Source: Trypanosoma brucei (taxonomy: Eukaryota). From it: DNA of 64,000 nucleotides. This document shows positions 26,781 through 64,000 of this stretch, piece by piece. The first letter of the stretch is position 1; the number at the start of each line of letters is the position of its first letter. The stretch spans positions 896,001-960,000 of the forward strand of contig CP000067.1 of the NCBI GenBank assembly GCA_000002445.1, given 5' to 3'. The notes under the pieces were generated by a model. The model did not search any database. It saw nothing but the letters and a program-made list of their open reading frames with translations, and had not been told where the DNA came from. A program made the translations under genes and the position numbers.

Positions 26781-26818
26781 AAACGAAAGCAAAGAAAGAT
26801 GGAAGGAAAGGGAAAAAG
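26781..26818 (-). promoter_or_regulatory. Polypyrimidine tract upstream of PP1 copy 1 (repeated upstream of copies 2 and 3 at +1921 and +3842)
   Basis: Plus strand aaacgaaagcaaagaaagatggaaggaaagggaaaaag, about 170-200 nt upstream of the ATG at 26612. Confidence 0.4.
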
Positions 26819-27648
26819 TAATTAGAGCGGTGCGGTTTCGCGGTTACAGCAAACATGCCAAGAACCTACGGGGCGTCCCTGCGCAACGGAAGGAACCTCA
26901 AACAGGGGAAGCCCAACAGCAACAGCCAGGGTGACGACTTTTACGTATTCACAACATTGTTCCCGCCTAGACAGCTGTGCCACTGAGTGCAATGACGAGA
27001 GAGCAAAGCTACAGGGGTGAAAATATAAACATGCATAAAAGGGGGGATAGAATATTAGAATATTTATCTGAAACGGTGGCAGGGTGGACAAATCTCAAGC
27101 AGCAAACCCAACCCAAATTTCAAGCCACAGTCCATTTCAGGGTGATGGGTGTACATGAACTCTTTAACATGAGATTACGACAATTCCTCAGACAGCGTAT
27201 TTGTTTCCACTCCTTCATTTTCTCCTCTGAACGCATATGTGGAAATATAAGCCATGACAAAGCACGCTTTTCTTAACGTCAGCCCTCATTACCAGAAAAC
27301 GGAAACACACATGAACATATCTGCAAATGATGGGAGAGTAGATGGGCGGGGGGAACGAATGGTTGAAGGAGCGAATGTATCATCACCGCCGCAAAAAAAC
27401 AAAAAAAAGACAGCGAAAAGTTGCAATTCAACGAGAGCGGGTGTGGAAAAAATGACCCATCCGGGCCTATTGACTGGGAGGTTTAACCTGATAAAGGACC
27501 CTACCCATGCTGCCATTAACTTAAACTCACTTCGTATAACAAACGATTTCTTCGCATTTCATCACGTCACACGCACTATCAAGACCATTCCGTGATTCAC
27601 ACATTGTCGCAGATACAAAAACGTCAGTACCCGACTCCCCGGCCCACA

Positions 27649-28533
27649 TTAGCGAGCTGCAATGATAGCAAAAGAACATTGTAACTTCTCGTCGACATTC
27701 ATGACGGCTGCATCATTGTCAAATTCACCACAATAGTTCGGCGCAGAGAAGATGGTCACCAACTGGCGGTTTGCGAAGAAGCCGTAACCACGCTCCATCA
27801 CTTGGTGAGCACGCACAACAAGGTCCATATCCACCATATCAAGGAAGTCAGTTACAATGTCTTCCCCAAACAGGTAACTCACACCGCGGTCACTCTCCAG
27901 GAAACCTTTTACTTCCTCCTCAGGATCTGCCCACAGCAAGTCACAGAGAATACCTTTGTCAGGCACATCCAGCGGGCGTTCTATTTCGCTTACGCAAGCC
28001 AACGAAGTCATGTCCGGACTCAGCCCACCATGCATGCAGATGATTTTCTCACCTACAACACAGCATACAGGCATAGTGTTAAATACATCTGTGAATGCTT
28101 TAAACAGTTTGGCGTTATAACGTCGCTTTACGTCATCGAAGAAACCGTACATTTTGTTTATGCTCGCACATTCATGATTACCGCGAAGGAGAAAGAAATT
28201 CTCCGGATACACAATTTTATAACAAAAAAGCAAAGTGATTGTCTCTACGCTGTGTCGGCCACGGTCAACATAGTCACCTAGAAACAGGTAATTTGAATAC
28301 GGTGGAAATCCACACTTCTCAAATACGCGCAGCAAGTCGTAGTATTGGCCATGGATATCCCCACAAATCCTCACTGGTGGCGTGATATCTAGCACAACCG
28401 GCTGTGACATGAATACGTCACGAACGGCATTGAGAATTGTCCGTATGTCCTCCTCGCGAATGAGAATTTGCCTTTGAGCCGTGTTTCCCTTGGCGCTGAG
28501 CATCCGCTCCAGCAGTGTCTGTACTAGGGTCAT
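27649..28533 (-). CDS. PP1: PP1 catalytic subunit, array copy 2
   Basis: Same family. Offset by 1921 bp from copy 1. Confidence 0.9.
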
Positions 28534-29569
28534 CCTTACGGGCTGGGTTGTCGGGCTAAACTACGCACGTCGATCGGATGCACACTCACACGAGTGCTAC
28601 TCCTCCCCCGCCTTGCTTTCGTGTCCCTTAGTTATCGCTCTTGTCTGACGACTTCGATGCTACCTACACACTTGCTAGTAAGCCAGTAACACCTAATTAC
28701 TAAACGAAAGCAAAGAAAGATGGAAGGAAAGGGAAAAAGTAATTAGAGCGGTGCGGTTTCGCGGTTACAGCAAACATGCCAAGAACCTACGGGGCGTCCC
28801 TGCGCAACGGAAGGAACCTCAAACAGGGGAAGCCCAACAGCAACAGCCAGGGTGACGACTTTTACGTATTCACAACATTGTTCCCGCCTAGACAGCTGTG
28901 CCACTGAGTGCAATGACGAGAGAGCAAAGCTACAGGGGTGAAAATATAAACATGCATAAAAGGGGGGATAGAATATTAGAATATTTATCTGAAACGGTGG
29001 CAGGGTGGACAAATCTCAAGCAGCAAACCCAACCCAAATTTCAAGCCACAGTCCATTTCAGGGTGATGGGTGTACATGAACTCTTTAACATGAGATTACG
29101 ACAATTCCTCAGACAGCGTATTTGTTTCCACTCCTTCATTTTCTCCTCTGAACGCATATGTGGAAATATAAGCCATGACAAAGCACGCTTTTTTTAACGT
29201 CAGCCCTCATTACCAGAAAACGGAAACACACATGAACATATCTGCAAATGATGGGAGAGTAGATGGGCGGGGGGAACGAATGGTTGAAGGAGCGAATGTA
29301 TCATCACCGCCGCAAAAAAACAAAAAAAAGACAGCGAAAAGTTGCAATTCAACGAGAGCGGGTGTGGAAAAAATGACCCATCCGGGCCTATTGACTGGGA
29401 GGTTTAACCTGATAAAGGACCCTACCCATGCTGCCATTAACTTAAACTCACTTCGTATAACAAACGATTTCTTCGCATTTCATCACGTCACACGCACTAT
29501 CAAGACCATTCCGTGATTCACACATTGTCGCAGATACAAAAACGTCAGTACCCGACTCCCCGGCCCACA

Positions 29570-30454
29570 TTAGCGAGCTGCAATGATAGCAAAAGAACAT
29601 TGTAACTTCTCGTCGACATTCATGACGGCTGCATCATTGTCAAATTCACCACAATAGTTCGGCGCAGAGAAGATGGTCACCAACTGGCGGTTTGCGAAGA
29701 AGCCGTAACCACGCTCCATCACTTGGTGAGCACGCACAACAAGGTCCATATCCACCATATCAAGGAAGTCAGTTACAATGTCTTCCCCAAACAGGTAACT
29801 CACACCGCGGTCACTCTCCAGGAAACCCTTTACTTCCTCCTCAGGATCTGCCCACAGCAAGTCACAGAGAATACCTTTGTCAGGCACATCCAGCGGGCGT
29901 TCTATTTCATTCACGGCAGCCAACGAAGTCATGTCCGGACTCAGCCCACCATGCATGCAGATGATTTTCTCACCTACAACACAGCATACAGGCATAGTGT
30001 TAAATACATCTGTGAATGCTTTAAACAGTTTGATGTTATAACGTCGCTTTACGTCATCGAAGAAACCGTACATTTTGTTTATGCTCGCACATTCATGATT
30101 ACCGCGAAGGAGAAAGAAATTCTCCGGATACACAATTTTATAACAAAAAAGCAAAGTGATTGTCTCTACGCTGTGTCGGCCACGGTCAACATAGTCACCT
30201 AGAAACAGGTAATTTGAATACGGTGGAAATCCACACTTCTCAAATACGCGCAGCAAGTCGTAGTATTGGCCATGGATATCCCCACAAATCCTCACTGGTG
30301 GCGTGATATCTAGCACAACCGGCTGTGACATGAATACGTCACGAACGGCATTGAGAATTGTCCGTATGTCCTCCTCGCGAATGAGAATTTGCCTTTGAGC
30401 CGTGTTTCCCTTGGCGCTGAGCATCCGCTCCAGCAGTGTCTGTACTAGGGTCAT
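29570..30454 (-). CDS. PP1: PP1 catalytic subunit, array copy 3
   Basis: Same family. Offset by 1921 bp from copy 2. Confidence 0.9.
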
Positions 30455-44043: not shown

Positions 44044-47000
44044 TTAATGCTTTTCCTTATTATTTAAAAAGGAAACCTCGTGTATCTGATCTCCAGGGAC
44101 GTGACAAGCGTTACCCGCATCAATTACAAATGCGGACATAAGCGCTTCAGGGCGATCAGTAATCAGTTTCATCCATTCGTTTCCGTCAAACACCTTAACG
44201 TGACGCGTGATGACCTTCTCCTTCTTGGTGGTGGGATCAGTCCACAACTCACAGTGCTCCCGCAAAAATACCAATTCCTTTTCTTTTGACGCACAGAGTG
44301 ACTCCAATGCGCTGTTTGTACCATTCAGTCCCTTCAATTGAGTTAGTAAGTCAACTATCTCTGCTTCAAGTGTAGCTAATGCAGTTTCTTTTTCAGATGA
44401 TAAAAGGGTCAGTTTTTCCTCTAAATGCTTAACCTTACACTGCAGTGCGCTATTGGCTGAGTCAGCCTCGAGTAGCCGCGCGCTAGTATCCTCGGCCAAC
44501 AACTCCTTCTCCGACAGACGTTGGGTCACCTCCTCTGCGAGCCTCTTATTCTCGGCAACCTTCAGCTCCAGCTCTTCTGCAAGTTTCTCATTCTCGGCAG
44601 CCTTCAGCTCAAGCTCTTCTGCAAGTTTCTCATTCTCGGCAGCCTTCAGCTCCAGCTCTTCTGCAAGCTTCTCATTCTCGGCAGCCTTCAGCTCAAGCTC
44701 TTCTGCAAGTTTCTCATTCTCGGCAACCTTCAGCTCCAGCTCTTCTGCAAGTTTCTCATTCTCGGCAGCCTTCAGCTCAAGCTCTTCTGCAAGTTTCTCA
44801 TTCTCGGCAACCTTCAGCTCAAGCTCTTCTGCAAGCTTCTCATTCTCGGCAGCCTTCAGCTCAAGCTCTTCTGCAAGTTTCTCATTCTCGGCAGCCTTCA
44901 GCTCCAGCTCTTCTGCAAGCTTCTCATTCTCGGCAGCCTTCAGCTCAAGCTCTTCTGCAAGTTTCTCATTCTCGGCAGCCTTCAGCTCAAGCTCTTCTGC
45001 AAGCTTCTCATTTTCGGCAGCCTTCAGCTCAAGCTCTTCTGCAAGCTTCTCATTTTCGGCAACCTTCAGCTCAAGCTCTTCTGCAAGCTTCTCATTCTCG
45101 GCAGCCTTCAGCTCAAGCTCTTCTGCAAGCTTCTCATTTTCGGCAACCTTCAGCTCAAGCTCTTCTGCAAGCTTCTCATTCTCGGCAGCCTTCAGCTCAA
45201 GCTCTTCTGCAAGTTTCTCATTCTCGGCAACCTTCAGCTCAAGCTCTTCTGCAAGCTTCTCATTCTCGGCAGCCTTCAGCTCAAGCTCTTCTGCAAGTTT
45301 CTCATTCTCGGCAACCTTCAGCTCAAGCTCTTCTGCAAGCTTCTCATTCTCGGCAGCCTTCAGCTCAAGCTCTTCTGCAAGCTTCTCATTTTCGGCAGCC
45401 TTCAGCTCAAGCTCTTCTGCAAGTTTCTCATTCTCGGCAGCCTTCAGCTCAAGCTCTTCTGCAAGCTTCTCATTTTCGGCAGCCTTCAGCTCAAGCTCTT
45501 CTGCAAGCTTCTCATTCTCGGCAACCTTCAGCTCAAGCTCTTCTGCAAGCTTCTCATTTTCGGCAGCCTTCAGCTCAAGCTCTTCTGCAAGCTTCTCATT
45601 CTCGGCAACCTTCAGCTCAAGCTCTTCTGCAAGCTTCTCATTCTCGGCAGCCTTCAGCTCAAGCTCTTCTGCAAGTTTCTCATTCTCGGCAGCCTTCAGC
45701 TCAAGCTCTTCTGCAAGTTTCTCATTCTCGGCAGCCTTCAGCTCCAGCTCTTCTGCAAGCTTCTCATTCTCGGCAGCCTTCAGCTCAAGCTCTTCTGCAA
45801 GCTTCTCATTTTCGGCAGCCTTCAGCTCAAGCTCTTCTGCAAGCTTCTCATTCTCGGCAGCCTTCAGCTCAAGCTCTTCTGCAAGTTTCTCATTCTCGGC
45901 AGCCTTCAGCTCAAGCTCTTCTGCAAGTTTCTCATTCTCGGCAACCTTCAGCTCAAGCTCTTCTGCAAGCTTCTCATTTTCGGCAACCTTCAGCTCAAGC
46001 TCTTCTGCAAGTTTCTCATTCTCGGCAGCCTTCAGCTCAAGCTCTTCTGCAAGTTTCTCATTCTCGGCAGCCTTCAGCTCAAGTTCTTCCATGAGTCTTT
46101 GTACCTGAACATTAAGATTCCGGATGTCACTGCGACTTTTGTTATTTTCAAGAACTAGTTGTTCGTTTTCAGCGGTTTTTCTCTGTATCTCCTCCGCCAA
46201 GCGCTCGTTCTGCAGGGTAACTCCGGACCTATCCCTTTCTTCTCTTTCAAGTTCCTCATGCATATTGTGCAGTTGCTCGCTTAGGCTTTGATTTTCTGCC
46301 ATAAGTTGCTCTAATCTGTCGTGGAGATTTTCTCGCTCGTCATTGGCTTGTTGAAGCTGCTGTCGCAACAGATCGTTTTCTTGCTGGAACTGGTTACTTC
46401 GATGCATATGGTCGTTGTACTCATCCAACGTCACCGAAAGCAGTGGTTCACTACTTATTTCGTCTGCGCTAACCATTTCCTGAAACGGCTTGGTTTGCGT
46501 CCCAATGGGTCGTAACGTAGGTTCAAGAGAGCGAACCTTGTGGGCATTTTGCCGTTTCTCTCTGTATGCCATGAGTTCCGCCTCCTGTTTGTCGAACAAC
46601 TCTTCTAGGTTGTTATAATGCTTTCGCAACTCTTCCAGCAATGCAGTTGTCTTGATATGGTCATCGATCTCACCCTCAAGCCTCTGCTGAAGATCAGATA
46701 TTTCCCTATCGCGCGCCTCAATGTGTGCTTGTGCGCTCTTCTCGGCCGCCCTGAGTGCCTCCAACTGTTCATCTAACTGTTCCAGATTCTCTAAGAGTCC
46801 CTCAATTTCCGCCTGTTTCTCTTCCAAGCGTTGAGTCATTTCTGAAAGCCCCTGCTCAGACAGTCTTGATTTCTCCTCCATCTGCCGAAGCTCGGCTTCG
46901 AGCCTCTCACACTCCGCTTCTAACTTTTCCTTTTCTTCCGAAACACCGCTTAACTCTGCCAGAAGGTCGTCCTGGGCGTTGAGAAGATTCTGGCACTGCT

Positions 47001-49122
47001 CCCGCTGCCGCTCTAGCTCCCGTTCAACTTGGTCACAGTGCTCCGTTTGCTCGCGGAGCTCGTCAAGGGTCACGCAGTAAACCGGTTCCGCGGTATCGTC
47101 CCCTCTGAAAGTCGACAAATTGCGCTGTGCACGTATTTGATTCGCCTGGGTTTTTTGGAGTTTCAATAACTCAAGTTCACTCGCCTGGTTATCGGCAAGA
47201 TCCCTAAGCTTTTCAACCAAATCACGCAAACGACCGATCTCAGCATGAAGCTCACCATTTCGCTGTCGCAGCGACTCCTGTTCGCGCATGGTTGATGCTG
47301 TCTGCCGGCGAAACTCCTCGGCGGATTTCTCAAGCGTGTACTGCAGTGAACGGTTCTCGTTATGGATTTTGTCCAGAAGCATAAGCAGGTCTCCTATCTC
47401 GCTTTCATACGCATCCTTATCGCCTACGCGGCCCTTCATAGCAACCTCTTCAATAAACTTGTCGAACGTCATACCGCGGAATGCATGCTCCCTGAGATCA
47501 AATGCGCGGCACACCTCAACAATTGCACGATCCAAACCCTTTTTGGGTTGGTCGACGTCGCAAAGCATCCGATCCATTCCACGGGAAGGAAATTCTTGCA
47601 GCCGCTTATTTATCTCCGCGGCAGTTTGTTTCACTGGGTGTTGAACGTCAAACGACACCTGTAGCTTCTCCGATGTAGCAGTGAACTCAATATTCCTAAT
47701 AGCATCCTCAGGAACATGGCAGGCCGCAGCCTGCTCGGTCCTGAATGTCGACAGAAGCTCCTCTGGCTTGCGTTCAACAACCTTCGACCACTCCCTCCCC
47801 GGATAAGACTTTCTGTGCTTGGTGGTGACGGTGGGTTCGTTCCGGTACATCCAACGCTCATCATGGCTGCTCAGTTCCTTGATAATTTCTTGTAAGTCCT
47901 TAATATTATTTGCAGAATCGCCTCTGGGGGCCTCAACAGACCTTAACCCGACGTCGGTTTCGATTCTTTCACGACGCGGAGCATTTGTCTTGCCTGCGTT
48001 TGTAAACAAACTGAACACGAAACGCTCCTGTAAATTCAAACGCCTTTCTTCAAGTTCGCTCGTGTACATTGAAAGGCAATGAAGCTCGGCCATCGCCTCC
48101 ATGTAGCTGTTAGATAAATGAGAAAAGTGATCATTTATCTGGAGGCGAGTTTGCTCTGCCTTATCGAGTATCAACCCCACTTCATCGTCAGTTAATACGC
48201 AGTCCTGTGCTGAAGGATCAACTCCCACAATGGATATGACGGAGGAGAGGGGAGCCTTAAGCTGCACCGACGTTTTGGTGAATGATGTTAACTGACCTCC
48301 GAATGTCGGCGTCCCTCCCCGTTCGAGCTCCTCCTTCAGCTTCATCACCTTCAAACGGCAGCCCTTCATTCCCGCAATGCAGTTTGCAATGGCATCATTT
48401 TGTTCCTGCACTCGTGTGTCCGTTGTCAGACGGCAGTACGCTTCCTGATACGCTAAAGCACTTAATACCCAGTGATGTAAGCTGCTGATTGCCTCAGAAT
48501 CTCGTGATGCAGCCAGTGACGAAAGACGCTGCTCGTTTAGTGATGAACATATCTCTTCAGCGTTAGGGTACGTTTTCCCAGTGATGTCTGCGCTTATGAA
48601 ATCTGCAATGGCATTCGGCCTCCGGTATTCCATACGAATGTCGTCCCATGTGGAGCAGTTGGTTACTGTCGGGTCGTTTTGTGCCAGCGCGAGCACAGAC
48701 TTGAGAACCTCAACGGCAACTGGAGAGGGGCATGCTTGAGACGTTACTTCCCGCATGTGCACTTCGTCAACGCTCGCCACACGCGCCTTGGCATCCTCAA
48801 ACACGGCGCGTGCGGCAGAAACGCGGTCTTCGTTTTCGCTGCGGATGGCAGCCAGTTTATCACGCGCACTGGAGAGCTGCTCCTGAAACACGCCCATGCG
48901 CTTCATCTCCTTCTGAATTTCGCTGGATATATTGTGCTTCAGCGTCTCGCAGCTACCTTCATTGACTGCCCACTGCTCCACGACAACAACATGTTTGTCG
49001 GAAGAGACGACCGTGCCCAAAGCCCACTGCCAGTGCTCTCCGTTTGCCAAATGATCGAATGCAATAACTTGGCCAGGCTGTAAAGTTAGTGGGTTTTCAC
49101 TGATAACATTCAGAAGAGCCAT
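44044..49122 (-). CDS. FAZ1: Giant coiled-coil repeat protein (1692 aa), FAZ1-like (flagellum attachment zone protein 1)
   Basis: It has a globular N-terminal region, then long coiled-coil, then about 37 tandem 14-aa repeats (ELELKAAENEKLAE / ELELKVAENEKLAE), then a coiled-coil C-terminus. Size and 14-aa repeat architecture match my recollection of T. brucei FAZ1. This attribution is from memory and is not searchable here. Confidence 0.75.
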   Translation of the reverse strand: MALLNVISENPLTLQPGQVIAFDHLANGEHWQWALGTVVSSDKHVVVVEQWAVNEGSCETLKHNISSEIQKEMKRMGVFQEQLSSARDKLAAIRSENEDRVSAARAVFEDAKARVASVDEVHMREVTSQACPSPVAVEVLKSVLALAQNDPTVTNCSTWDDIRMEYRRPNAIADFISADITGKTYPNAEEICSSLNEQRLSSLAASRDSEAISSLHHWVLSALAYQEAYCRLTTDTRVQEQNDAIANCIAGMKGCRLKVMKLKEELERGGTPTFGGQLTSFTKTSVQLKAPLSSVISIVGVDPSAQDCVLTDDEVGLILDKAEQTRLQINDHFSHLSNSYMEAMAELHCLSMYTSELEERRLNLQERFVFSLFTNAGKTNAPRRERIETDVGLRSVEAPRGDSANNIKDLQEIIKELSSHDERWMYRNEPTVTTKHRKSYPGREWSKVVERKPEELLSTFRTEQAAACHVPEDAIRNIEFTATSEKLQVSFDVQHPVKQTAAEINKRLQEFPSRGMDRMLCDVDQPKKGLDRAIVEVCRAFDLREHAFRGMTFDKFIEEVAMKGRVGDKDAYESEIGDLLMLLDKIHNENRSLQYTLEKSAEEFRRQTASTMREQESLRQRNGELHAEIGRLRDLVEKLRDLADNQASELELLKLQKTQANQIRAQRNLSTFRGDDTAEPVYCVTLDELREQTEHCDQVERELERQREQCQNLLNAQDDLLAELSGVSEEKEKLEAECERLEAELRQMEEKSRLSEQGLSEMTQRLEEKQAEIEGLLENLEQLDEQLEALRAAEKSAQAHIEARDREISDLQQRLEGEIDDHIKTTALLEELRKHYNNLEELFDKQEAELMAYREKRQNAHKVRSLEPTLRPIGTQTKPFQEMVSADEISSEPLLSVTLDEYNDHMHRSNQFQQENDLLRQQLQQANDERENLHDRLEQLMAENQSLSEQLHNMHEELEREERDRSGVTLQNERLAEEIQRKTAENEQLVLENNKSRSDIRNLNVQVQRLMEELELKAAENEKLAEELELKAAENEKLAEELELKVAENEKLAEELELKVAENEKLAEELELKAAENEKLAEELELKAAENEKLAEELELKAAENEKLAEELELKAAENEKLAEELELKAAENEKLAEELELKAAENEKLAEELELKAAENEKLAEELELKVAENEKLAEELELKAAENEKLAEELELKVAENEKLAEELELKAAENEKLAEELELKAAENEKLAEELELKAAENEKLAEELELKAAENEKLAEELELKVAENEKLAEELELKAAENEKLAEELELKVAENEKLAEELELKAAENEKLAEELELKVAENEKLAEELELKAAENEKLAEELELKVAENEKLAEELELKAAENEKLAEELELKAAENEKLAEELELKAAENEKLAEELELKAAENEKLAEELELKAAENEKLAEELELKVAENEKLAEELELKAAENEKLAEELELKVAENEKLAEELELKAAENEKLAEELELKAAENEKLAEELELKAAENEKLAEELELKVAENKRLAEEVTQRLSEKELLAEDTSARLLEADSANSALQCKVKHLEEKLTLLSSEKETALATLEAEIVDLLTQLKGLNGTNSALESLCASKEKELVFLREHCELWTDPTTKKEKVITRHVKVFDGNEWMKLITDRPEALMSAFVIDAGNACHVPGDQIHEVSFLNNKEKH
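44509..46085. repeat. 42-bp (14-codon) in-frame tandem repeat, about 37 copies, inside the FAZ1-like CDS
   Basis: Period-42 repetition of ctcggcagccttcagctcaagctcttctgcaagcttctcatt. Variants gcagcc/gcaacc give A/V, and ctcaag/ctccag and aagctt/aagttt are synonymous. Confidence 0.9.
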
Positions 49123-52100: not shown

Positions 52101-55100
52101 TTTTAACGGAGGTATCAATAATAACTTCAACAGAGGTTGAAACGAGGATACTTAGTGTGGAAAGGGCTGATGAATACATCTAGGACGCGAACCGGTAAGT
52201 ACCTTAATTTCGGGTAAATGATAATAATAATAATAACCGTATTTCTCCAGTAGTCATACCATAAACCGAGCACATGCATAATGAGTTGTTAAAACACGCA
52301 CACTATCTTCATTGTCACCAGTGTATGACACCCAACGCTGATCAAGCGCGTAGGCAACATATTACAAACGGGTGTTAAGTTGTATGAAATATGGCACTGT
52401 TTCAAATGCTACCCCCTTCTCAACAGCGTCAGTACACCTCGCACTGCAGTCGGACGAAGGCACAGATGTGACACCCAACGTCACGGTGTTTCAACAAGAC
52501 GCTTGCAGAGCGTGCAGAAAAGTGATTCCTTTGCGGCTGTGCCTATGCGCGCACCCCATTACCATCAGTACTCCCGAACAGGAACCCACCTTCCGAGACG
52601 ACAACAACGGCTGGTATAAAGATCAACGACCATGCACTTGCCAGCGCGCAGCGGACGCAACTCATAGACCCATAAAAGCATGAATTCAATAAAACAATAG
52701 CAACACCAATGTGAAAACGTCTGCGATAGCGCCGCCACCTTCATTCACCCGGTCCACTGCACTGCGCACCGCTCCCACACCGATAGGTGCCAGAGGCATC
52801 GATGAACGACTACTTCGCAGCACCTCCAAAACGGTTTTAGACAGAAATTAGCAGGGCCGCCGGCTCGCCCGGGCACTAAAGCAATCCCTTAAACTACCTG
52901 AAACCTGGCGGAAGACCCCACGGAAACGCACGGGCGGAGGCCTACAGAGAAAGGCGCCCCGCTACGCACAGGCGCCCTCGCCGGCTCACAAAAAGGAAAC
53001 CATGCGTACCTCCCACTCACGAGACACACCACAACCGCCGAACCCCATACCGTGTGGACGTCCCCCGCGCGCAGGGGGAACCACGGGTTTACTGCTGCAG
53101 TCCCGTCACCCCAGCAGCGAACACGCGGATCCCTCGCGATAGCCGAAAACAAAGCAGAGGGAAATGACTCGCGTCTGTCGGGGCCGCGGACGCCAGCGCC
53201 TCAACAGGTCAACTTTGGGCAGAACCTCCTCAGGTCGGGGACGTCAAGAGCCCCCACGTGGCACCGGGGTTGAGTACATCATTAAAGGGGAGGCCAAACG
53301 ACTGTTCGCACCCTGTCATCAGGGAGACATGGCAGCTCGCCGGCTGTTGGTTGTTGGGGTAATGGGAGAAGTGGAAACGATATTGGCTCCCTGATGTGGG
53401 AACCGATATCTTTGTTGTCCCTTGCACGCTCTTGCATGTTCCCGTGGGCGTGTAGGGGCAACTCCCGTTGTGGAGAAGATATCAGAGGCAACTGTAATTC
53501 ACCTACTGGCGTATGGTAAGGGACTGTCTCTTCAAATTTTTTTGGGGGAAAAGGAAGGCTTCTTTTGCGTTTTGAAGGGGACATACATCCACGCGACGAA
53601 GAAGTGAACTGCAAAATGATGCCTGTATTTCCGGAGCATTGATATAGCAAACCCTTCTAGGGGTTGACGAGTGTCAAAATCGGCAGAAAATAGCACAGGT
53701 AGAATGCAAGGCTCGTAACAAAATGGGGACTGGAAGAGTGCCAGCTAAACCGAAACTCGCTCAGGAGTAGTGGAACACACTCGTGTCAATATTTTTCTGT
53801 GGCCAAATCTGGAATCACCTGACCACTACTGGAAGGTTGCATGGAAGAGATAGTTTGAAGGTTTGCAGAAAGGCAATGGAGTAGCAATTCGACGAAGGAG
53901 GAAACTTAAATACCCCACATATCACGCGGAATGCTGCCTTGGAATAGGATTCCGCAGAATATGAGGGATAAATGTTATTGCCGCCTGAAGGAATAATAGT
54001 CACTTATAGGGATAGGGGTTTACGATGGGAATTAGGCAGTTCCTTCAGCTGTTGGAAGTTTTGAAGCAAATAGACAAGACAGAAAAAACAATGAACTTCC
54101 TGAGGAATCAGAGCAGGCAATGCAAAAGGCACTGACCGAAGCGCAGAGTAGAACACGATACAAATGTAGATGGTGCGATTATTAGCGTGTTCATGTGTCG
54201 GGGCCCATTCTGCACACAAGGAACAAACACTCGGTGGAAGTTGGAATGAAAAAAGATACAAATGATAAAGCATCTCCGGCATCAAAGACAGCTCCAAAGA
54301 CCCTCCAACGCTCGCAGTACAAAATGCGTGCAACAAAGTGACCTCACTGAACTCATGCAGCGGAAAGGCGAATGCAAAATAGGAAAAAAAGCACAACACT
54401 GTAAAAAGTGGGTACTACTCATCTTCCCTAAAACCGTCACAACACCCCTCCCCAGGAAGCGCTGCGTAGAGAAAGCGGTCGAAAATGCCGCAAACAGATG
54501 GTTGCCGTTTCGCATGCAACTGGCACGTTTCCATGCAAGCTATTTCAACCAAAGGATTTGGAGCTAAACACAGAGGAGCGTCAACAGACTCAAGATAACT
54601 GTCAAAGGAATTCACACTGAAACGACCATGGGTTGGGAAAAAGGAAAAGGGGGACTACTTCGCCGACGGCCAAGCCTACCTACATTCCGCCACGCCATAC
54701 TTTGAAGAACCCGGCGTGTGAGTGCTGCTTGCGGCCGAGGGCACACAACTCATTGGCGCAAAAGGTGACAGTCACGCGGCGGTGTGGAACCGCACGATTC
54801 GATCAGATACTAGGGGAATAACTTTACTGCGGCGCCATGTCGGTAAGTAGCTTCGGGCCAACAAAAAACTGGCGATAGCACCAAGTGTGCGTGCCAACAT
54901 CGGGAGCTCACACCTGATGCGTCACCCCTCAAGGGAAGTGCGGGGCGCACCAATGGATGTCATAGAACTTCACCGAGCAGTGATGGTCAACATCTCCTCG
55001 ATATGAGTGTGTGGAACGTACGGGGTGAGCCCATTCGCCAACAGCTTCTCTGCATTCGTAGACCAAATCCAAACGGAGAAATTTTCTCAGGACAGCCGAC

Positions 55101-55974
55101 GAACTCTGACGGAAGAATTGGAACTGGTGGAACGCGCACGAATTGGAGAAATGTCTGAGGTGCGGCATCCGTGTTGCAACCGCAGGGGTTGTTCCTTGAA
55201 TCACAGCCACACCACAACACTCAACACCTCAACTTACTAAACTCGATAAGGGGATTGCGAGGTGTCATCGCTCATTGAATGGGGGAACTGGTCGACATGC
55301 AGAGGTAGCTTCCAGGCCGCATGACAAATGAAGGGTGTTTCGTGCCGTTCTGAGAGCACAAGGCTCCGGTCCGTTGCAACTGGTGCGTCAAGAAAGTGTA
55401 CGCGTCGGGGCCATTCAACCTCCTGGCGGCTATATGAGACGGTGCTCCAAAACCGACTACCGGCAGGAGAAACATTTCGTTGATCCCTACGCGCCCCGGG
55501 CAACAGATTACTTATCCTCGCCCTTAAGGCATTCGACGTGAGTTTATGGAATGGAATCGTACCTGCTGCACGGGAGAGTTATCAATAATTTCCATACAGA
55601 AACACCCTAAGAAGGTGGAGCGTTTGGATGTCCACGAGGCGGTGAAAGCGATGAGTTGCGCGCGCAAAGCCATCGAGAACATCGTTGGTAATGGAATTGG
55701 GGACTTTATGAGGGAGGGGCCCACACTAGAACCGGGATTTCGGCCGGGTCGCCCCACGCTAAGGCTGCTTCAGCGCTTCCAGATGGCCCTTGGTCACCCG
55801 TCGCCGTCGCACATGGGAGCGGCATTCATAGTTTACGCGAATGCCTTGGATGTCACACGGAAAGCGGCTGATGGTTTTATTTTACAGCAGAATGAAAGGA
55901 ACAAAAGTTGGCAAAACACTGTTAAACAGCCGGACGCTTGCAAGAGGCATAAAGCAACTGCATCAGAGCGCACT

Positions 55975-58211
55975 GTGCCCCTCAGCCTCGGACTCGCAGA
56001 GCCAACTCTTGGAAGCATTTCCGCTATCACATGACGGCTTTTTTGCGGATAATTTGGCGCTATCGGCGCGATGCACGAAGAGGGACCCCGAAGACCGCAC
56101 ACCGCAGGGCAGCCCCGGCGTTGTGATACAATGGCAGCAAAAGTGACTTATGTACGCCCGCACGCCGGTGACGAAATGCAAACTGCTCAGTTACATTGAA
56201 CACTTATCGTCAATGTAACATCACGGTGGGGCTCGGGCTGGGGTTGGAAAAGTACCGAAGATGTTTTGGGACGGCGCGCTGCGCAAACACAGCGAATAGC
56301 AAGCCGCAGGGCGCTGAAAATAGAAACCGTTTGGGCGACGGCGTATCACCCAGATGAGGCGTTGCGTGCTTTACACTTCCGGTTTTTACAATTACGTGAC
56401 ACGTGCAGAGCTGATGTGTGGCATTAGTGCGTCTCAGAAGGTATTCGAGAGGCGACCGGAGCGGAGCGGCACAAAGACAGCCAAACCATCGAGGATGTAT
56501 CGCACGCGCACTATACAACCCCACCCGTAACTTCGTGCCGGGACGGAAGCCGCTGATCCAAACTTCTCCAACGCCTTCCTTTTCAATGCAACAGGGCCTT
56601 CCGCGGGAAGATAAGGCCCGTGTGCGCAAACTGTCCCGGAGAGGCTTAGATCGGCGAATGGACATTCTTAAACCAGAGGTCCGGCCAGACCCTCAGCCCA
56701 AGTGAGGACGAAAAAACGATACATCAGGTCAACAAAAGCGGCGGCGCACTTGCACGTGGGCGCTGTGTAGGACCCCTTGCACTGGCGGTGGGCCTGCGAA
56801 AGGCACCGAATCCCTTCCTAATTCACAAGGCGGTGCTGCCCAGCCTCTCGATATACCCGCTTTCGTTCTCCACCATGCCGGAGGCGAGCGCAGTTACCAT
56901 TACTGACCCGTCCCTGCACAAATTGCGGTGGTCAGCTGTGACAATACCGGGCAGGAACAATTGCATTAGACCACAGTTTGTACTCCCCTGCTGCGGCGTG
57001 GCATTGAACGAAGGCGCGCGGCGAAATTGCGAAGAATGTCGTTGGCATGTCACAGTTGCCCGACCGGGGGTTTGCAGACACCGCGGCCTATTCGAAGCGT
57101 TTGTTGTGATCTGGGGAAATATACTCGGGGGCCCACCGGGACACATTTCACGACCAAATGCAAAGAATGGATGCGCGGGCCGACAGCGTTGGCTGGCACT
57201 GCTGGTGGTCGCCGCACAAAATCAACTCATGGGTGGCCCGTTCCACCGGTGGCAGGAACCGTAATTTCCACTGGCGACGCTTGCACCCCAACCAATCCCA
57301 ACGACCACGACCTCGGTGTTAACAACCTTCTTTCACGCTGAGGGACAAAAAAGGTGTACTAATTGCGGTGCGATATGGCAAACACCGAACGAGTGCAGTG
57401 ACGAATATGGCGGCGGATCTTCTGGCGTAGGCGCGTTCTTTTGAAAAATGAAATGCGGTGATGCGTCGCGTCCAGCGTATGATCCATCAGAACCCATGCA
57501 ACCGCGGCCCGTACTGGCGCCTTCGCGAGTATCAACAACAGCAAGCCTCAACACTAAACATTCAAAGGCGTCACGACGGCACCACCTTCGCAGCCACATT
57601 TGTGATACAAAGCAATCGGTTCGCGAGCTAAACAGGTCTTGAATTGAAAAGCAGGATGCAAGATGTAAAGCAATAACTACAAGACAGCGCATCTACCGCA
57701 AGAAAACATTGTTTTACCCAACAAGCTACCATGCCCCGGAGGCAACATAGCCAACACCAAACGACACCGCCATCCTGCAGAAGTTCTGCTTCTCCGGTCG
57801 CCTTGAATAACTTCAACTCACCACAAAACGACTCCAGCGCTTGACGCCACTCTTAGCTACGACTATTGAAAAACAGGGTAAACAGGAACAAAAATCATAC
57901 AGCACCCCCATTAACAAGAGAATAGACAGAAAAAACTAAGCAACAAACAAAGAAGTGGAAAAGTAGGCAAGTCAGCAAGTCTAACATCTAGCATCGCCTC
58001 CTCACCCTTCAACAAACACACACCCAAAAGACAAAACAATGCACGAAAAATATTCACATCAGCAAAAGAAAAAAAACCAAAAATACAAAATAAAGAAAAA
58101 AACAACATTTATCAGCGGTGAAGAGAACGGTACAACTAAAGAAAAAACAAGAATAAAAAAAGACACAATCAACAAACACAAAACATATTAAAACCAGCGA
58201 CAAATGGGTAT
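55975..58211. repeat. Inverted repeat, left arm (at least 2.2 kb) flanking the 147-bp array
   Basis: Reverse complement of 61776..64000. Paired ORF translations show 98-99% identity (57333..57692 minus = 62286..62645 plus; 56210..56665 minus = 63313..63768 plus). The arm start is set by the window end on the partner arm. Confidence 0.85.
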
Positions 58212-61200
58212 GATTGTGCAACACTGTTTTTGCACAATCATACGCATAAACGCGTATTTGACGTGAAAATACGCAATAGTGCACAATTTGCACACAAACA
58301 TGCCACATTGTGCATGTTATGCAAGAATGCGTGTTTTGCACCAAAACACCTTACATATTGCATTGCAACACTGTTTTTGCGCAATCATACGCATGAACGC
58401 GTATTTGACGTGAAAATACGCAATAGTGCACAATTTGTGAACAAACATGCCACATTGTGCATGTTATGCAAGAATGCGTGTTTTGCACCAAAACACCTTA
58501 CATATTGCATTGCAATACTGTTTTTGCACAATCATACGCATAAACGCGTATTTGACGTGAAAATACGCAATAGTGCACAATTTGCACACAAACACGCCAC
58601 ATTGTGCATGTTATGCAAGAATGCGTGTTTTACACCAAAACACCTTACATATTGCATTGCAACACTGTTTTTGCGCAATCATACGCATGAACGCGTATTT
58701 GACGTGAAAATACGCAATAGTGCACAATTTGCACACAAACATGCCACATTGTGCATGTTATGCAAGAATGCGTGTTTTACACCAAAACACCTTACATATT
58801 GCATTGCAACACTGTTTTTGCACAATCATACGCATAAACGCGTATTTGACGTGAAAATACGCAATAGTGCACAATTTGCACACAAACATGCCACATTGTG
58901 CATGTTATGCAAGAATGCGTGTTTTGCACCAAAACACCTTACATATTGCATTGCAACACTGTTTTTGCGCAATCATACGCATAAACGCGTATTTGACGTG
59001 AAAATACGCAATAGTGCACAATTTGCACACAAACATGCCACATTGTGCATGTTATGCAAGAATGCGTGTTTTACACCAAAACACCTTACATATTGCATTG
59101 CAATACTGTTTTTGCACAATCATACGCATAAACGCGTATTTGACGTGAAAATACGCAATAGTGCACAATTTGCACACAAACACGCCACATTGTGCATGTT
59201 ATGCAAGAATGCGTGTTTTACACCAAAACACCTTACATATTGCATTGCAACACTGTTTTTGCGCAATCATACGCATGAACGCGTATTTAACGTGAAAATA
59301 CGCAATAGTGCACAATTTGCACACAAACACGCCACATTGTGCATGTTATGCAAGAATGCGTGTTTTACACCAAAACACCTTACATATTGCATTGCAACAC
59401 TGTTTTTGCGCAATCATACGCATGAACGCGTATTTGACGTGAAAATACGCAATAGTGCACAATTTGCACACAAACACGCCACATTGTGCATGTTATGCAA
59501 GAATGCGTGTTTTACACCAAAACACCTTACATGTTGCATTGCAACACTGTTTTTGCGCAATCATACGCATAAACGCGTATTTGACGTGAAAATACGCAAT
59601 AGTGCACAATTTGCACACAAACACGCCACATTGTGCATGTTATGCAAGAATGCGTGTTTTACACCAAAACACCTTACATGTGGCATTGCAACACTGTTTT
59701 TGCGCAATCATACGCATAAACGCGTATTTGACGTGAAAATACGCAATAGTGCACAATTTGCACACAAACACGCCACATTGTGCATGTTATGCAAGAATGC
59801 GTGTTTTACACCAAAACACCTTACATATTGCATTGCAACACTGTTTTTGCGCAATCATACGCATGAACGCGTATTTGACGTGAAAATACGCAATAGTGCA
59901 CAATTTGCACACAAACACGCCACATTGTGCATGTTATGCAAGAATGCGTGTTTTACACCAAAACACCTTACATGTTGCATTGCAACACTGTTTTTGCGCA
60001 ATCATACGCATAAACGCGTATTTGACGTGAAAATACGCAATAGTGCACAATTTGCACACAAACATGCCACATTGTGCATGTTATGCAAGAATGCGTGTTT
60101 TGCACCAAAACACCTTACATATTGCATTGCAACACTGTTTTTGCACAATCATACGCATAAACGCGTATTTGACGTGAAAATACGCAATAGTGCACAATTT
60201 GCACACAAACATGCCACATTGTGCATGTTATGCAAGAATGCGTGTTTTACACCAAAACACCTTACATATTGCATTGCAATACTGTTTTTGCACAATCATA
60301 CGCATAAACGCGTATTTGACGTGAAAATACGCAATAGTGCACAATTTGTGAACAAACATGCCACGTTGTGCATGTTATGCAAGAATGCGTGTTTTACACC
60401 AAAACACCTTACATGTTGCATTGCAACACTGTTTTTGCGCAATCATACGCATAAACGCGTATTTGACGTGAAAATACGCAATAGTGCACAATTTGCACAC
60501 AAACATGCCACATTGTGCATGTTATGCAAGAATGCGTGTTTTGCACCAAAACACCTTACATATTGCATTGCAACACTGTTTTTGCACAATCATACGCATA
60601 AACGCGTATTTGACGTGAAAATACGCAATAGTGCACAATTTGCACACAAACATGCAACATTGTGCATGTTATGCAAGAATGCGTGTTTTACACCAAAACA
60701 CCTTACATATTGCATTGCAACACTGTTTTTGCGCAATCATACGCATGAACGCGTATTTGACGTGAAAATACGCAATAGTGCACAATTTGCACACAAACAT
60801 GCCACATTGTGCATGTTATGCAAGAATGCGTGTTTTGCACCAAAACACCTTACATATTGCATTGCAACACTGTTTTTGCACAATCATACGCATAAACGCG
60901 TATTTGACGTGAAAATACGCAATAGTGCACAATTTGTGAACAAACATGCCACATTGTGCATGTTATGCAAGAATGCGTGTTTTGCACAAAAACACCTTAC
61001 ATGTTGCATTGCAACACTGTTTTTGCGCAATCATACGCATGAACGCGTATTTGACGTGAAAATACGCAATAGTGCACAATTTGTGAACAAACATGCCACA
61101 TTGTGCATGTTATGCAAGAATGCGTGTTTTGCACCAAAACACCTTACATGTTGCGTTGCAACACTGTTTTTGCGCAATCATACGCATGAACGCGTATTTG

Positions 61201-61780
61201 ACGTGAAAATACGCAATAGTGCACAATTTGCACACAAACATGCCACATTGTGCATGTTATGCAAGAATGCGTGTTTTGCACCAAAACACCTTACATATTG
61301 CATTGCAACACTGTTTTTGCGCAATCATACGCATGAACGCGTATTTGACGTGAAAATACGCAATAGTGCACAATTTGTGAACAAACATGCAACGTTGTGC
61401 ATGTTATGCAAGAATGCGTGTTTTGCACCAAAACACCTTACATATTGCATTGCAACACTGTTTTTGCGCAATCATACGCATGAACGCGTATTTGACGTGA
61501 AAATACGCAATAGTGCACAATTTGTGAACAAACATGCAACGTTGTGCATGTTATGCAAGAATGCGTGTTTTGCACCAAAACACCTTACATATTGCATTGC
61601 AACACTGTTTTTGCACAATCATACGCATGAACGCGTATTTGACGTGAAAATACGCAATAGTGCACAATTTGTGAACAAACATGCCACATTGTGCATGTTA
61701 TGCAAGAATGCGTGTTTTGCACAAAAACACCTTACATATTGCATTGCAACACTGTTTTTGCACAATCATACCCATTTGTC
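58200..61780. repeat. 147-bp AT-rich satellite, about 24 tandem copies (CIR147-like candidate centromeric repeat)
   Basis: Exact 147-bp periodicity (e.g. tacgcat[a/g]aacgcg at 58241 and 58388) with a small set of recurring unit variants. A 1229-aa open frame is an artefact of 147 = 3 x 49. Confidence 0.9.
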
Positions 61781-64000
61781 TCTGGTTTCAATATGTTTTG
61801 TGTTTGTTGATTGTGTCTTTTTTTATTCTTGTTTTTTCTGTAGTTGTCCCGTTCTCTTCACCGCTGATAGATGTTTTTTTTTCTTTATTTTGTATTTTTG
61901 GTTTTTTTTCTTTTGCTGATGTGAATATTTTTCGTGCATTGTTTTGTCTTTTGGGTGTGCGTTTGTTGAAGGGTGAGGAGGCGATGCTAGATGTTAGACT
62001 TGCTGACATGCCGACTTTTCCACTTCTTTGTTTGTTGCTTAGTTTTTTCTGTCTATTCTCTTGTTAATGGGGGTGCTGTATGATTTTGGTTCCTGTTTAC
62101 CCTGTTTTTCAGTAGTCGTAGCTAAGAGTGGCGTCAAGCGCTGGAGTCGTTTTGTGGTGAGTTGAAGTTATTCAAGGCGACCGGAGAAGCAGAACTTCTG
62201 CAGGATGGCGGTGTCGTTTGGTGTTGGCTATGTTGCCTCCGGGGCATGGTAGCTTGTTGGGTAAAACAATGTTTTCTTGCGGTAGATGCGCTGTCTTGTA
62301 GTTATTGCTTTACATCTTGCATCCTGCTTTTCAATTCAAGACCTGTTTAGCTCGCGAACCGATTGCTTTGTATCACAAATGTGGCTGCGAAGGTGGTGCC
62401 GTCGTGACGCCTTTGAATGTTTAGTGTTGAGGCTTGCTGTTGTTGATACTCGCGAAGCCGCCAGTACGGGCCGCGGTTGCATGGGTTCTGATGGATCATA
62501 CGCTGGACGCGACGCATCACCGCATTTAATTTTTCAAAAGAACGCGCCTACGCCAGAAGATCCGCCGCCATATTCGTCACTGCACTCGTTCGGTGTTTGC
62601 CATATCGCACCGCAATTAGTACACCTTTTTTGTCCCTCAGCGTGAAAGAAGGTTGTTAACACCGAGGTCGTGGTCGTTGGGATTGGTTGGGGTGCAAGCG
62701 TCGCCAGTGGAAATTACGGTTCCTGCCACCGGTGGAACGGGCCACCCATGAGTTGATTTTGTGCGGCGACCACCAGCAGTGCCAGCCAACGCTGTCGGCC
62801 CGCGCATCCATTCTTTGCATTTGGTCGTGAAATGTGTCCCGGTGGGCCCCCGAGTATATTTCCCCAGATCACAACAAACGCTTCGAATAGGCCGCGGTGT
62901 CTGCAAACCCCCGGTCGGGCAACTGTGACATGCCAACGACATTCTTCGCAATTTCGCCGCGCGCCTTCGTTCAATGCCACGCCGCAGCAGGGGAGTACAA
63001 ACTGTGGTCTAATGCAATTGTTCCTGCCCGGTATTGTCACAGCTGACCACCGCAATTTGTGCAGGGACGGGTCAGTAATGGTAACTGCGCTCGCCTCCGG
63101 CATGGTGGAGAACGAAAGCGGGTATATCGAGAGGCTGGGCAGCACCGCCTTGTGAATTAGGAAGGGATTCGGTGCCTTTCGCAGGCCCACCGCCAGTGCA
63201 AGGGGTCCTACACAGCGCCCACGTGCAAGTGCGCCGCCGCTTTTGTTGACCTGATGTATCGTTTTTTCGTCCTCACTTGGGCTGAGGGTCTGGCCGGACC
63301 TCTGGTTTAAGAATGTCCATTCGCCGATCTAAGCCTCTCCGGGACAGTTTGCGCACACGGGCCTTATCTTCCCGCGGAAGGCCCTGTTGCATTGAAAAGG
63401 AAGGCGTTGGAGAAGTTTGGATCAGCGGCTTCCGTCCCGGCACGAAGTTACGGGTGGGGTTGTATAGTGCGCGTGCGATACATCCTCGATGGTTTGGCTG
63501 TCTTTGTGCCGCTCCGCTCCGGTCGCCTCTCGAATACCTTCTGAGACGCACTAATGCCACACATCAGCTCTGCACGTGTCACGTAATTGTAAAAACCGGA
63601 AGTGTAAAGCACGCAACGCCTCATCTGGGTGATACGCCGTCGCCCAAACGGTTTCTATTTTCAGCGCCCTGCGGCTTGCTATTCGCTGTGTTTGCGCAGC
63701 GCGCCGTCCCAAAACATCTTCGGTACTTTTCCAACCCCAGCCCGAGCCCCACCGTGATGTTACATTGACGATAAGTGTTCAATGTAACTGAGCAGTTTGC
63801 ATTTCGTCACCGGCGTGCGGGCGTACATAAGTCACTTTTGCTGCCATTGTATCACAACGCCGGGGCTGCCCTGCGGTGTGCGGTCTTCGGGGTCCCTCTT
63901 CGTGTATCGCGCCGATAGCGCCAAATTATCCGCAAAAAAGCCGTCATGTGATAGCGGAAATGCTTCCAAGAGTTGGCTCTGCGAGTCCGAGGCTGAGGGG
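61776..64000. repeat. Inverted repeat, right arm; runs off the window end
   Basis: See left arm. The true extent is unknown. Confidence 0.85.

What the first reader, a model, noticed from the sequence alone, without database searches (positions are those of the whole stretch)
55975..64000. Palindromic architecture: 147-bp satellite array embedded between inverted repeats of at least 2.2 kb and about 99% identity that extend beyond the window
The left arm (about 55975-58211) is the reverse complement of the right arm (61776-64000). Every ORF on one arm reappears on the opposite strand of the other with one or two substitutions per 100 aa. This near-identity points to recent formation or ongoing homogenisation. 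The right arm is cut by the window edge, so the inverted duplication may be much larger, conceivably mirroring the whole upstream region. A large perfect palindrome centred on a satellite array is the signature of a fold-back inversion or isochromosome-like event, or of a centromere-type structure. It could equally be an assembly artefact in a repeat-rich region. The array sits immediately upstream of a 49-kb unidirectional gene cluster, the typical context of kinetoplastid centromeres and strand-switch regions.
Basis: seen in the sequence. Interest (0 to 1): 0.8.

Follow-up and report, generated by a model that had tools for sequence, protein, structure and literature searches.

The report
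Trypanosoma brucei chromosome 4 centromere
The 147-bp satellite array between two near-identical inverted arms is real, but it is the published centromere of Trypanosoma brucei chromosome 4 (CIR147 repeats between two facing degenerate retroelements), so it is an ordinary, known feature and not a new palindrome.

Summary
Arms 55978-58221 and 61758-64000 are reverse complements, 99.4% identical over 2,244 columns. They flank 24 head-to-tail 147-bp units at 58217-61775.

The unit is the canonical T. brucei CIR147 centromere repeat: a published 15-nt CIR147 target occurs in 23 of 24 units. The neighbouring gene is FAZ1 (Tb927.4.3740). Obado et al. 2007 described this locus as 'head-to-head DIREs either side of a 3.5 kb AT-rich element' at the topoisomerase-II-mapped centromere of chromosome 4.

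The array is known to be collapsed in the reference: 3.6 kb assembled against about 70 kb by restriction mapping.

The symmetry does not run through the upstream region. Independent Trypanozoon assemblies show a sharp outer arm boundary at window 54679, which gives arms of about 3.54 kb. This boundary is inferred from other strains.

The arms are not an assembly duplicate. They differ at 14 positions, mostly close to the array, and a de novo T. equiperdum contig reproduces the left junction.

Two details may be new. The left junction carries a 14-nt inverted satellite stub that forms a hairpin. Arm divergence rises towards the array.

Verdict: already known, low interest.

The parts
58217..61775 (+). 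CIR147 centromeric satellite array: 24 units of exactly 147 bp, all in one orientation, 39% G+C. It is collapsed in the assembly (about 70 kb in vivo according to PMC3292466).
   Evidence: Tandem Repeats Finder. Unit-by-unit comparison. The published CIR147 TALE target TTGACGTGAAAATAC occurs in 23 of 24 units, with 0 expected by chance. Array sizes from the literature.
54679..58221 (+). Left arm of the inverted repeat. 55978-58221 is demonstrably mirrored within the window. 54679-55977 is inferred to be mirrored beyond 64000. The literature calls it a DIRE (degenerate ingi/L1Tc-related retroelement) whose A-rich end faces the array.
   Evidence: blastn 99.38% over 2,244 columns. Outer boundary at 54679 from loci L001-L003 and L005. 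DIRE label from Obado 2007. No RT or endonuclease domain detectable here.
61758..64000 (-). Right arm of the inverted repeat, cut by the window end. It is predicted to continue to about 65300 and then into sequence 'Y' (L001:1-4370), which is absent from the window.
   Evidence: Extension inferred.
58209..58244 (.). Local centre of symmetry at the left junction. It consists of a 14-nt inverted copy of satellite positions 14-27 (GTATGATTGTGCAA), an 8-nt loop (CACTGTTT) and the forward TTGCACAATCATAC of the first unit. The join overlaps the TGCAA/TTGCA inverted microhomology that is present in the consensus unit.
   Evidence: Sequence. DNA fold -19 kcal/mol, z = -6.2, 0 of 200 shuffles as good. 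The same junction occurs in T. equiperdum OVI contig L005.
61749..61775 (+). Right junction. The array ends in a partial unit (positions 1-27, TGCAACACTGTTTTTGCACAATCATAC) that runs straight into the right arm (CCATTTGTCTCTGG...).
   Evidence: Sequence. Alignment of the arm ends.
53251..53306 (+). Weak match to the Pr77 5' hallmark and promoter of ingi/L1Tc-type retroposons, with the CGTG DPE motif kept. It may mark the 5' end of the left DIRE, 1.43 kb outside the inverted-repeat arm.
   Evidence: nhmmer E = 0.1 and a local alignment of about 70% identity to L1Tc Pr77, whose sequence comes from PMC8190864 Table S3. Suggestive only.
44044..49122 (-). FAZ1 (flagellum attachment zone protein 1), the first gene of the minus-strand cluster and the nearest real gene to the centromere. 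It anchors the locus to chromosome 4.
   Evidence: 1,692-aa ORF with 37 repeats of 42 bp. Best hits are FAZ1 of T. vivax (69%), T. conorhini and T. rangeli (58%). FAZ1 = Tb927.4.3740 in the literature.

Best explanation
This is the regional centromere of Trypanosoma brucei chromosome 4, most probably from the TREU927 reference. It consists of a CIR147 satellite array at the head of a directional gene cluster, bracketed by two copies in opposite orientation of a segment of about 3.5 kb. That segment is the 3' part of a degenerate ingi/L1Tc-type retroelement plus its A-rich junction with the satellite. According to the literature, the array and its flanks are where topoisomerase II cleaves. The array binds the kinetoplastid kinetochore protein KKT2, and both of its strands are transcribed by Pol II to give DCL2-dependent siRNAs. 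Centromeres coincide with early-firing replication origins. The inverted arms are best read as a local inverted segmental duplication. One copy of 'arm plus the last 14-27 nt of satellite' was joined in reverse to the other end of the array, at the 5-bp inverted microhomology TGCAA/TTGCA that lies within the satellite unit. The mechanism would be fold-back priming followed by in-register loss of the inverted units, or replicative template switching. The copies have since been kept nearly identical by arm-to-arm gene conversion. The identity of the locus is shown. The origin of the arms, their homogenisation and any role of the arms are inferred.
For: Identity of the satellite: period 147, 24 units. 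The 15-nt sequence that PMC12975129 gives as lying within the consensus CIR147 repeat is present in 23 of 24 units, with 0 expected by chance. Chromosome: the adjacent gene is FAZ1, which is Tb927.4.3740. Taxon: the region is 98.9% identical to T. equiperdum OVI contig CZPT02001332.1. [quoted passage not shown] The GeneDB array size of 3.6 kb matches the 3,559 bp found here. Function from the literature: KKT2 enrichment on the chromosome 4 CIR147 array; siRNAs and Pol II transcripts from both strands; centromeres as early origins. Local rather than chromosome-scale duplication: the arm boundary at 54679 has two unrelated outer flanks in other assemblies. Junction anatomy: a 14-nt inverted satellite stub and hairpin, conserved in T. 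equiperdum.
Against: The DIRE nature of the arms could not be reproduced. Pfam on all six frames found no reverse-transcriptase or endonuclease signal. phmmer against the PDB and against 1.84 billion representative proteins also found none. The right arm beyond 64000 is not in the window, so its length and the assignment of 'Y' as its outer flank are inferred from other strains. Y could instead be an allelic variant or a third copy. No T. brucei record could be retrieved for a direct match. The assembled array is about 20-fold collapsed, so unit orientation across the real array is unknown.
Confidence: 0.9

Rival explanations
1. Assembly artefact: one flank was placed on both sides of a collapsed repeat, so the inverted repeat does not exist in the genome.
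For: The array is certainly collapsed, 3.6 kb assembled against about 70 kb mapped. Short-read assemblies merge the two arms into one contig.
Against: The arms differ at 13 substitutions and 1 indel, clustered near the array; a duplicated read set would be identical. The two array junctions differ in structure: an inverted stub and hairpin on the left, a continuous partial unit on the right. A de novo Velvet assembly of T. equiperdum reproduces the left junction with left-type alleles at 8 of 11 inner sites. Two different outer flanks meet the arm at the same base. Obado 2007 drew both DIREs independently.
Confidence: 0.05
2. Large fold-back inversion or isochromosome-like palindrome: the symmetry continues far beyond the window and mirrors the upstream gene cluster.
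For: The right arm runs to the last base of the window. The left junction looks like a fold-back join at a short inverted microhomology.
Against: Contigs from four read sets and from T. equiperdum leave the window sequence sharply at 54679 and continue into 4.4 kb that is found nowhere in the window. The literature describes the domain as separating directional gene clusters on chromosome 4. All 24 assembled units share one orientation.
Confidence: 0.03
3. Two independent insertions of the same retroelement, one on each side of the array, with no duplication event.
For: Retroelements accumulate at trypanosome centromeres and strand-switch regions.
Against: DIREs are old and degenerate, and here no coding domain is detectable. 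Yet the two copies are 99.4% identical and share every ORF-breaking lesion. The identity also covers the A-rich junction and 14 nt of satellite. It stops at 54679, about 1.4 kb inside the putative element if the Pr77-like site marks its 5' end.
Confidence: 0.04
4. Functional inverted-repeat centromere: the arms are selected because they drive convergent transcription across CIR147 to make the dsRNA for siRNAs, permit flip-flop inversion, or act as boundaries, as in fission yeast or Candida tropicalis.
For: Both CIR147 strands are transcribed by Pol II and yield DCL2-dependent siRNAs. All seven long inverted repeats surveyed in T. brucei make small RNAs. Pr77 at DIRE 5' ends is a Pol II promoter, and both elements point at the array. 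Outer-arm identity is very high, 0.16% divergence.
Against: CIR147 centromeres on chromosomes 5 and 8 also yield siRNAs, and no flanking inverted repeat has been reported for them (Table 3). The Pr77-like match is weak and lies outside the arm. Centromeres on other chromosomes use other repeats and flanks. No expression data could be examined here.
Confidence: 0.1

Closest known systems
T. brucei chromosome 4 centromere (CIR147 array between head-to-head DIREs; Obado et al. 2007, Echeverry et al. 2012)
   Same: The repeat period is about 147 bp. The assembled array size is 3.5-3.6 kb. The canonical CIR147 sequence is present. The array lies next to a directional gene cluster, with facing degenerate elements on both sides and FAZ1 (Tb927.4.3740) adjacent.
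   Different: Nothing material. This report adds base-level arm limits, the divergence gradient and the anatomy of the left junction.
Long inverted repeats of T. brucei that produce siRNAs (IR1-IR7; Tschudi et al. 2012)
   Same: The arms are kilobase-sized, 99-100% identical, and separated by a few kb of spacer.
   Different: The chromosome 4 centromere repeat is not among the seven listed. Its spacer is a satellite array. siRNA output from its arms is unknown.
Palindromic 177-bp repeat core of T. brucei minichromosomes (Wickstead et al. 2004)
   Same: A satellite-based palindromic architecture in the same organism, also bound by kinetochore proteins.
   Different: In minichromosomes the array itself reverses orientation at a single inversion point. 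Here all 24 assembled units run one way and only a 14-nt inverted stub exists. The repeat family is different.
Inverted-repeat centromeres of fission yeast (imr/otr around a central core) and Candida tropicalis
   Same: A centromeric core is flanked by near-identical inverted repeats of a few kb. There is an RNAi link to centromeric repeats (background).
   Different: In those fungi the core is unique sequence and the repeats form heterochromatin around CENP-A chromatin. According to established knowledge of the field, kinetoplastids lack CENP-A. Here the core is the satellite itself. A requirement for the arms is untested, and other T. brucei centromeres lack such arms.

Membership tests
CIR147 centromeric satellite of T. 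brucei | Tandem array with a unit of about 147 bp | tested here: met
   Period 147, 24.2 copies, 97% matches, no indels. There are 24 units of exactly 147 bp.
CIR147 centromeric satellite of T. brucei | Canonical CIR147 sequence (published consensus segment TTGACGTGAAAATAC, specific for the chromosome 4, 5 and 8 arrays) | tested here: met
   23 exact matches, one per unit, all on the + strand, with 0 expected by chance. The target sequence comes from PMC12975129.
CIR147 centromeric satellite of T. brucei | AT-rich, chromosome-internal, at the boundary of directional gene clusters | tested here: met
   The unit is 39% G+C, against about 50% in the flanks. The minus-strand gene cluster at 3.8-49.1 kb starts next to it. 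The right-hand cluster lies outside the window.
CIR147 centromeric satellite of T. brucei | Occupied by kinetochore proteins (KKT2/3), cleaved by topoisomerase II, source of DCL2-dependent siRNAs | not testable with these tools
   Literature only.
[quoted passage not shown] | Recognisable remnants of the ingi/L1Tc endonuclease, reverse-transcriptase or RNase H coding regions | tested here: inconclusive
   No Pfam hit in any of six frames of 53500-58216, nor on a stitched reverse-transcriptase-like stretch. Nothing in the PDB. Nothing among 1.84 billion representative proteins. By eye, the motifs GFRPGRPT, AAFIVYANALDV and FFADNLAL on the + strand at 55.7-56.1 kb resemble non-LTR reverse-transcriptase motifs. 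No ingi or L1Tc protein was available for direct comparison. The DIRE label rests on Obado 2007.
[quoted passage not shown] | Pr77 hallmark at the 5' end | tested here: inconclusive
   The best match to L1Tc Pr77 is at 53251-53306 on the + strand, E = 0.1, with the CGTG motif kept. It would give an element of about 5.0 kb ending at the array.
Fold-back inversion or isochromosome-type palindrome | Mirror symmetry continues outward over the whole duplicated chromosome segment | tested here: not met
   Symmetry ends at 54679 in related assemblies, where two unrelated flanks X and Y meet the arm. This is inferred for the window's own genome.
Fold-back inversion or isochromosome-type palindrome | Short spacer or hairpin with microhomology at the centre of symmetry | tested here: met
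   A 14-bp stem and 8-nt loop at 58209-58244. The join overlaps the TGCAA/TTGCA inverted microhomology. This fits a local inverted duplication as well as a true fold-back.
Minichromosome-type repetitive palindrome (177-bp core) | The array reverses orientation at an internal inversion point | tested here: not met
   All 24 assembled units run in one orientation. The real array of about 70 kb is not assembled, so this holds only for the sequence given.

The most novel reading that the evidence does not exclude
The 3.5-kb inverted arms are a working part of the chromosome 4 centromere. Two facing retroelement remnants fire or pass Pol II transcription into the CIR147 array from both sides. This would supply the dsRNA behind the DCL2-dependent CIR147 siRNAs. 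Recombination between the arms would flip the array and keep the arms identical. That would make this an inverted-repeat-type centromere in a eukaryote that lacks CENP-A.
Probability: 0.08. Interest if true: 0.55.

Novelty: already known. Interest (0 to 1): 0.15.

Why it matters
The finding matters little as a discovery. The locus, its satellite, its facing retroelements and the collapse of the array in the reference are all published. Three base-level details are cheap leads for anyone who studies how trypanosome centromeric arrays rearrange, or why CIR147 is transcribed on both strands. The first is arms of about 3.5 kb that end sharply at 54679. The second is a 14-nt inverted satellite stub and hairpin at one junction. 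The third is arm divergence rising about 20-fold next to the array. All three could be tested directly on the existing long-read Lister 427 assemblies.

Tried and rejected
1. I tried to show that the arms are retroelements and failed. Pfam on six-frame translations with stops masked found nothing. Pfam on two hand-stitched reverse-transcriptase-like sequences found nothing. phmmer against PDB sequences found nothing. An exhaustive phmmer of the 162-aa ORF against 1.84 billion representatives returned only the ORF itself plus a repetitive junk protein.

2. I tried to fetch the window's own genome record and the sequence beyond 64000 by exact protein look-up. This failed for the right-arm 119-aa ORF, FAZ1, PP1, a left-flank ORF, the right-junction ORF and the 151-aa arm ORF. 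T. brucei itself appears to be absent from the collection. A homology search with the left-flank ORF found nothing.

3. Rfam and tRNA scans of the window were empty.

4. I considered X (window left flank) and Y (the alternative flank) as diverged 5' halves of two DIREs. A sensitive blastn found no similarity between them.

5. The 1,229-aa ORF at 58230-61919 is not a gene. It is the satellite read in an open frame, because 147 bp equals 49 codons.

6. The read-set accessions of the Logan contigs could not be traced to a paper.
Full report
**1.

A gapless repeat search finds inverted arms 55978-58102 and 61876-64000, 2,125 nt long and rounded to 100% complementary. A further 170 nt at 86% reaches the array. 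A gapped blastn joins these into one alignment: 61758-64000 against 58221-55978, 2,244 columns, 99.38% identity, 13 mismatches and 1 gap. The right arm ends at 64000 only because the window ends there.

Between the arms, Tandem Repeats Finder reports one array at 58217-61775, with period 147, 24.2 copies, 97% matches and no indels. Cutting it into units gives 24 units of exactly 147 bp. All run in the same orientation, differ from the consensus at 0-8 positions, have 39% G+C, and show no higher-order pattern.

The arm differences are unevenly spread. Three lie in the outer 1,888 bp (0.16%) and eleven in the 356 bp next to the array (3.1%). Five of the six mirrored ORF pairs are identical, and one pair differs at 2 of 119 residues. 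These ORFs are not genes. The 158-aa and 162-aa ORFs that were searched have no relatives other than near-identical copies of themselves in other Trypanozoon assemblies.

**2. What it is**

The eukaryotic gene content points to a trypanosome. On the minus strand from 3.8 to 49.1 kb lie genes for PP1 phosphatase (three copies), EF-1 beta (two copies), ribosomal protein L13 and a CBF/Mak21 protein.

The gene nearest the array, 44044-49122 on the minus strand, encodes 1,692 aa with 37 copies of a 14-aa repeat. Its non-repetitive N-terminus matches flagellum attachment zone protein 1 of T. vivax at 69% and of T. conorhini and T. rangeli at 58%. In T. brucei, FAZ1 is Tb927.4.3740, on chromosome 4.

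A 162-aa arm ORF occurs with exactly the same sequence in contig CZPT02001332.1 (locus L005). That contig belongs to the T. equiperdum OVI genome and is 98.9% identical to window 54506-58238. The window therefore comes from the subgenus Trypanozoon.

The 147-bp unit contains TTGACGTGAAAATAC. PMC12975129 gives this sequence as lying within the consensus CIR147 centromere repeat and used it to target the chromosome 4, 5 and 8 arrays. It occurs in 23 of the 24 units, with none expected by chance.

Obado et al. 2007 mapped etoposide-induced topoisomerase-II cleavage on chromosome 4. [quoted passage not shown] Echeverry et al. 2012 list the assembled array as 3.6 kb but measured about 70 kb by long-range restriction mapping. 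The 3,559-bp array here matches the assembled reference value.

**3. How far the symmetry runs**

The window cannot answer this, so I used other assemblies. The 158-aa arm ORF is present in seven short-read (Logan) contigs.

- Contigs L001-L003 match the window from 57745 outward to 54679 at 99.25%. They then continue into sequence 'Y', up to 4.37 kb long, that occurs nowhere in the window.
- The break is sharp, at ...CCCCCG|CCTACATTCCGCC.
- In the T. equiperdum scaffold, a piece of Y ends at exactly that base. A 10-N gap follows, and then window-like sequence runs from 54506 through the arm to the array.

Two unrelated sequences thus abut the arm at the same base: X, which is the window's own left flank, and Y. 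The simplest reading is that X flanks the left arm and Y flanks the right arm. That gives arms of 3,543 bp, 54679-58221, with a predicted mirror image at 61758 to about 65300. The symmetry does not extend into the gene cluster. This is an inference from other strains. Y could also be an allelic variant or a third copy.

**4. The arms are not an assembly duplicate**

- They differ at 14 positions.
- Their junctions with the array differ in structure.
- The T. equiperdum contig comes from a de novo Velvet assembly. It carries the left-arm allele at 8 of the 11 inner diagnostic sites and the left-type junction.

**5. Junction anatomy**

On the right, the array ends in a partial unit (positions 1-27) that runs straight into the arm. 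On the left, the arm is followed by GTATGATTGTGCAA, the reverse complement of unit positions 14-27. Then comes CACTGTTT, and then the forward TTGCACAATCATAC of the first unit.

This forms a hairpin with a 14-bp stem and an 8-nt loop at 58209-58244. Its DNA folding energy is -19 kcal/mol, z = -6.2, and none of 200 shuffles folds as well.

The join overlaps TGCAA, which is both unit positions 1-5 and the reverse complement of positions 14-18. The consensus unit therefore carries a 5-bp inverted microhomology. Removing exactly the 24 units at 58245-61772 would leave a perfect palindrome with an 8-nt loop.

This is the signature expected of an inverted join made by fold-back priming or template switching at that microhomology. 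If a fold-back made it, the inverted half of the array was later lost in register. This origin is inference.

Because the array lies between inverted repeats, recombination between the arms could also flip it. Which junction is ancestral therefore cannot be decided.

**6. What the arms are**

I could not confirm the DIRE label with the tools available.

- Pfam found nothing in any frame.
- The PDB sequence search found nothing.
- The exhaustive representative search found nothing meaningful.

By eye, the + strand at 55.7-56.1 kb carries stretches that resemble non-LTR reverse-transcriptase motifs: GFRPGRPT, AAFIVYANALDV and FFADNLAL, spread across a frameshift. The end next to the array is A-rich. 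The best match to the L1Tc Pr77 5' hallmark is at 53251-53306 on the + strand, with E = 0.1 and the CGTG motif kept.

Together these hints suggest an element of about 5.0 kb that points at the array and starts 1.4 kb outside the inverted-repeat arm. If so, the duplicated unit is the 3' two-thirds of an element plus its junction with the satellite, not a whole element. All of this is weak.

**7. How it works**

From the literature:

- The array on chromosome 4 is occupied by the kinetochore protein KKT2.
- The region is a topoisomerase-II cleavage site.
- Centromeres are the earliest or most efficient replication origins.
- CIR147 is transcribed on both strands by Pol II and yields DCL2-dependent siRNAs, whose levels rise when histone H3.V is lost.

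None of this could be tested here.

The most likely status of the arms is a by-product of repeat-driven rearrangement, kept uniform by gene conversion. A functional role is conceivable, for example convergent transcription into the array, since Pr77 is a Pol II promoter. It is unsupported, however. The survey of long inverted repeats by Tschudi et al. lists none at the chromosome 5 or 8 CIR147 arrays and, oddly, none on chromosome 4 either.

**8. Verdict**

The feature is already known and of low interest. The junction hairpin, the arm boundary and the divergence gradient are small additions that can be checked on existing long-read assemblies.

Noticed in passing
window 58230-61919 (+): A 1,229-aa ORF spans the whole satellite. 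It exists only because 147 bp equals 49 codons and one frame of the unit has no stop codon. It is not a gene, though a gene caller would report it.
   Followed up: yes
window 44530-46089 (within FAZ1, minus strand): 37 copies of a 42-bp (14-aa, EELELKAAENEKLA) coding repeat at 95% identity. Such a repeat is likely to be length-polymorphic and prone to collapse in assemblies.
   Followed up: partly
window 25728-30454 and 19105-21947 (minus strand): Tandem gene copies: three 294-aa PP1-type phosphatase genes spaced 1,921 bp apart, and two 261-aa EF-1 beta genes spaced 2,057 bp apart.
   Followed up: no
window 53251-53306 (+); L001 861-902 (+): Weak matches to the Pr77 promoter hallmark of trypanosomatid retroposons, with E = 0.1 and E = 0.72. 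One lies upstream of each putative arm flank, and both are on the strand that points towards the array.
   Followed up: partly
L001 1-4370; L005 29-978: Sequence 'Y' abuts the arm at window position 54679 in other Trypanozoon assemblies. It is absent from the window and unrelated to the window's own flank. None of its called ORFs has a Pfam hit. It is presumed to be the outer flank of the right arm.
   Followed up: partly
window 57866-58221 versus 61758-62112: Arm divergence is about 20-fold higher in the A-rich 356 bp next to the array than in the outer arm. The T. equiperdum contig also differs from the window's left arm at several positions in the array-proximal 120 bp that were inspected. 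Either gene conversion does not reach the inner ends, or this low-complexity stretch mutates quickly.
   Followed up: partly
window 58217-58363 (consensus unit): The 147-nt unit contains several short dyad symmetries. As single-stranded DNA it folds at -31.3 kcal/mol, z = -2.7. This is in line with the idea that centromeric satellites are rich in non-B-form DNA.
   Followed up: partly
window 6001-10000: Unusually strong AT skew (+0.28) and low G+C (0.45) compared with the rest of the gene cluster. The cause was not examined.
   Followed up: no
protein collections used by the tools: Exact look-ups of FAZ1 and PP1 failed, and of the arm ORFs tried all but two failed. The best FAZ1 hit was T. vivax at 69%. 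T. brucei itself seems to be missing from the searchable collections, while T. equiperdum and some Logan read sets are present.
   Followed up: yes
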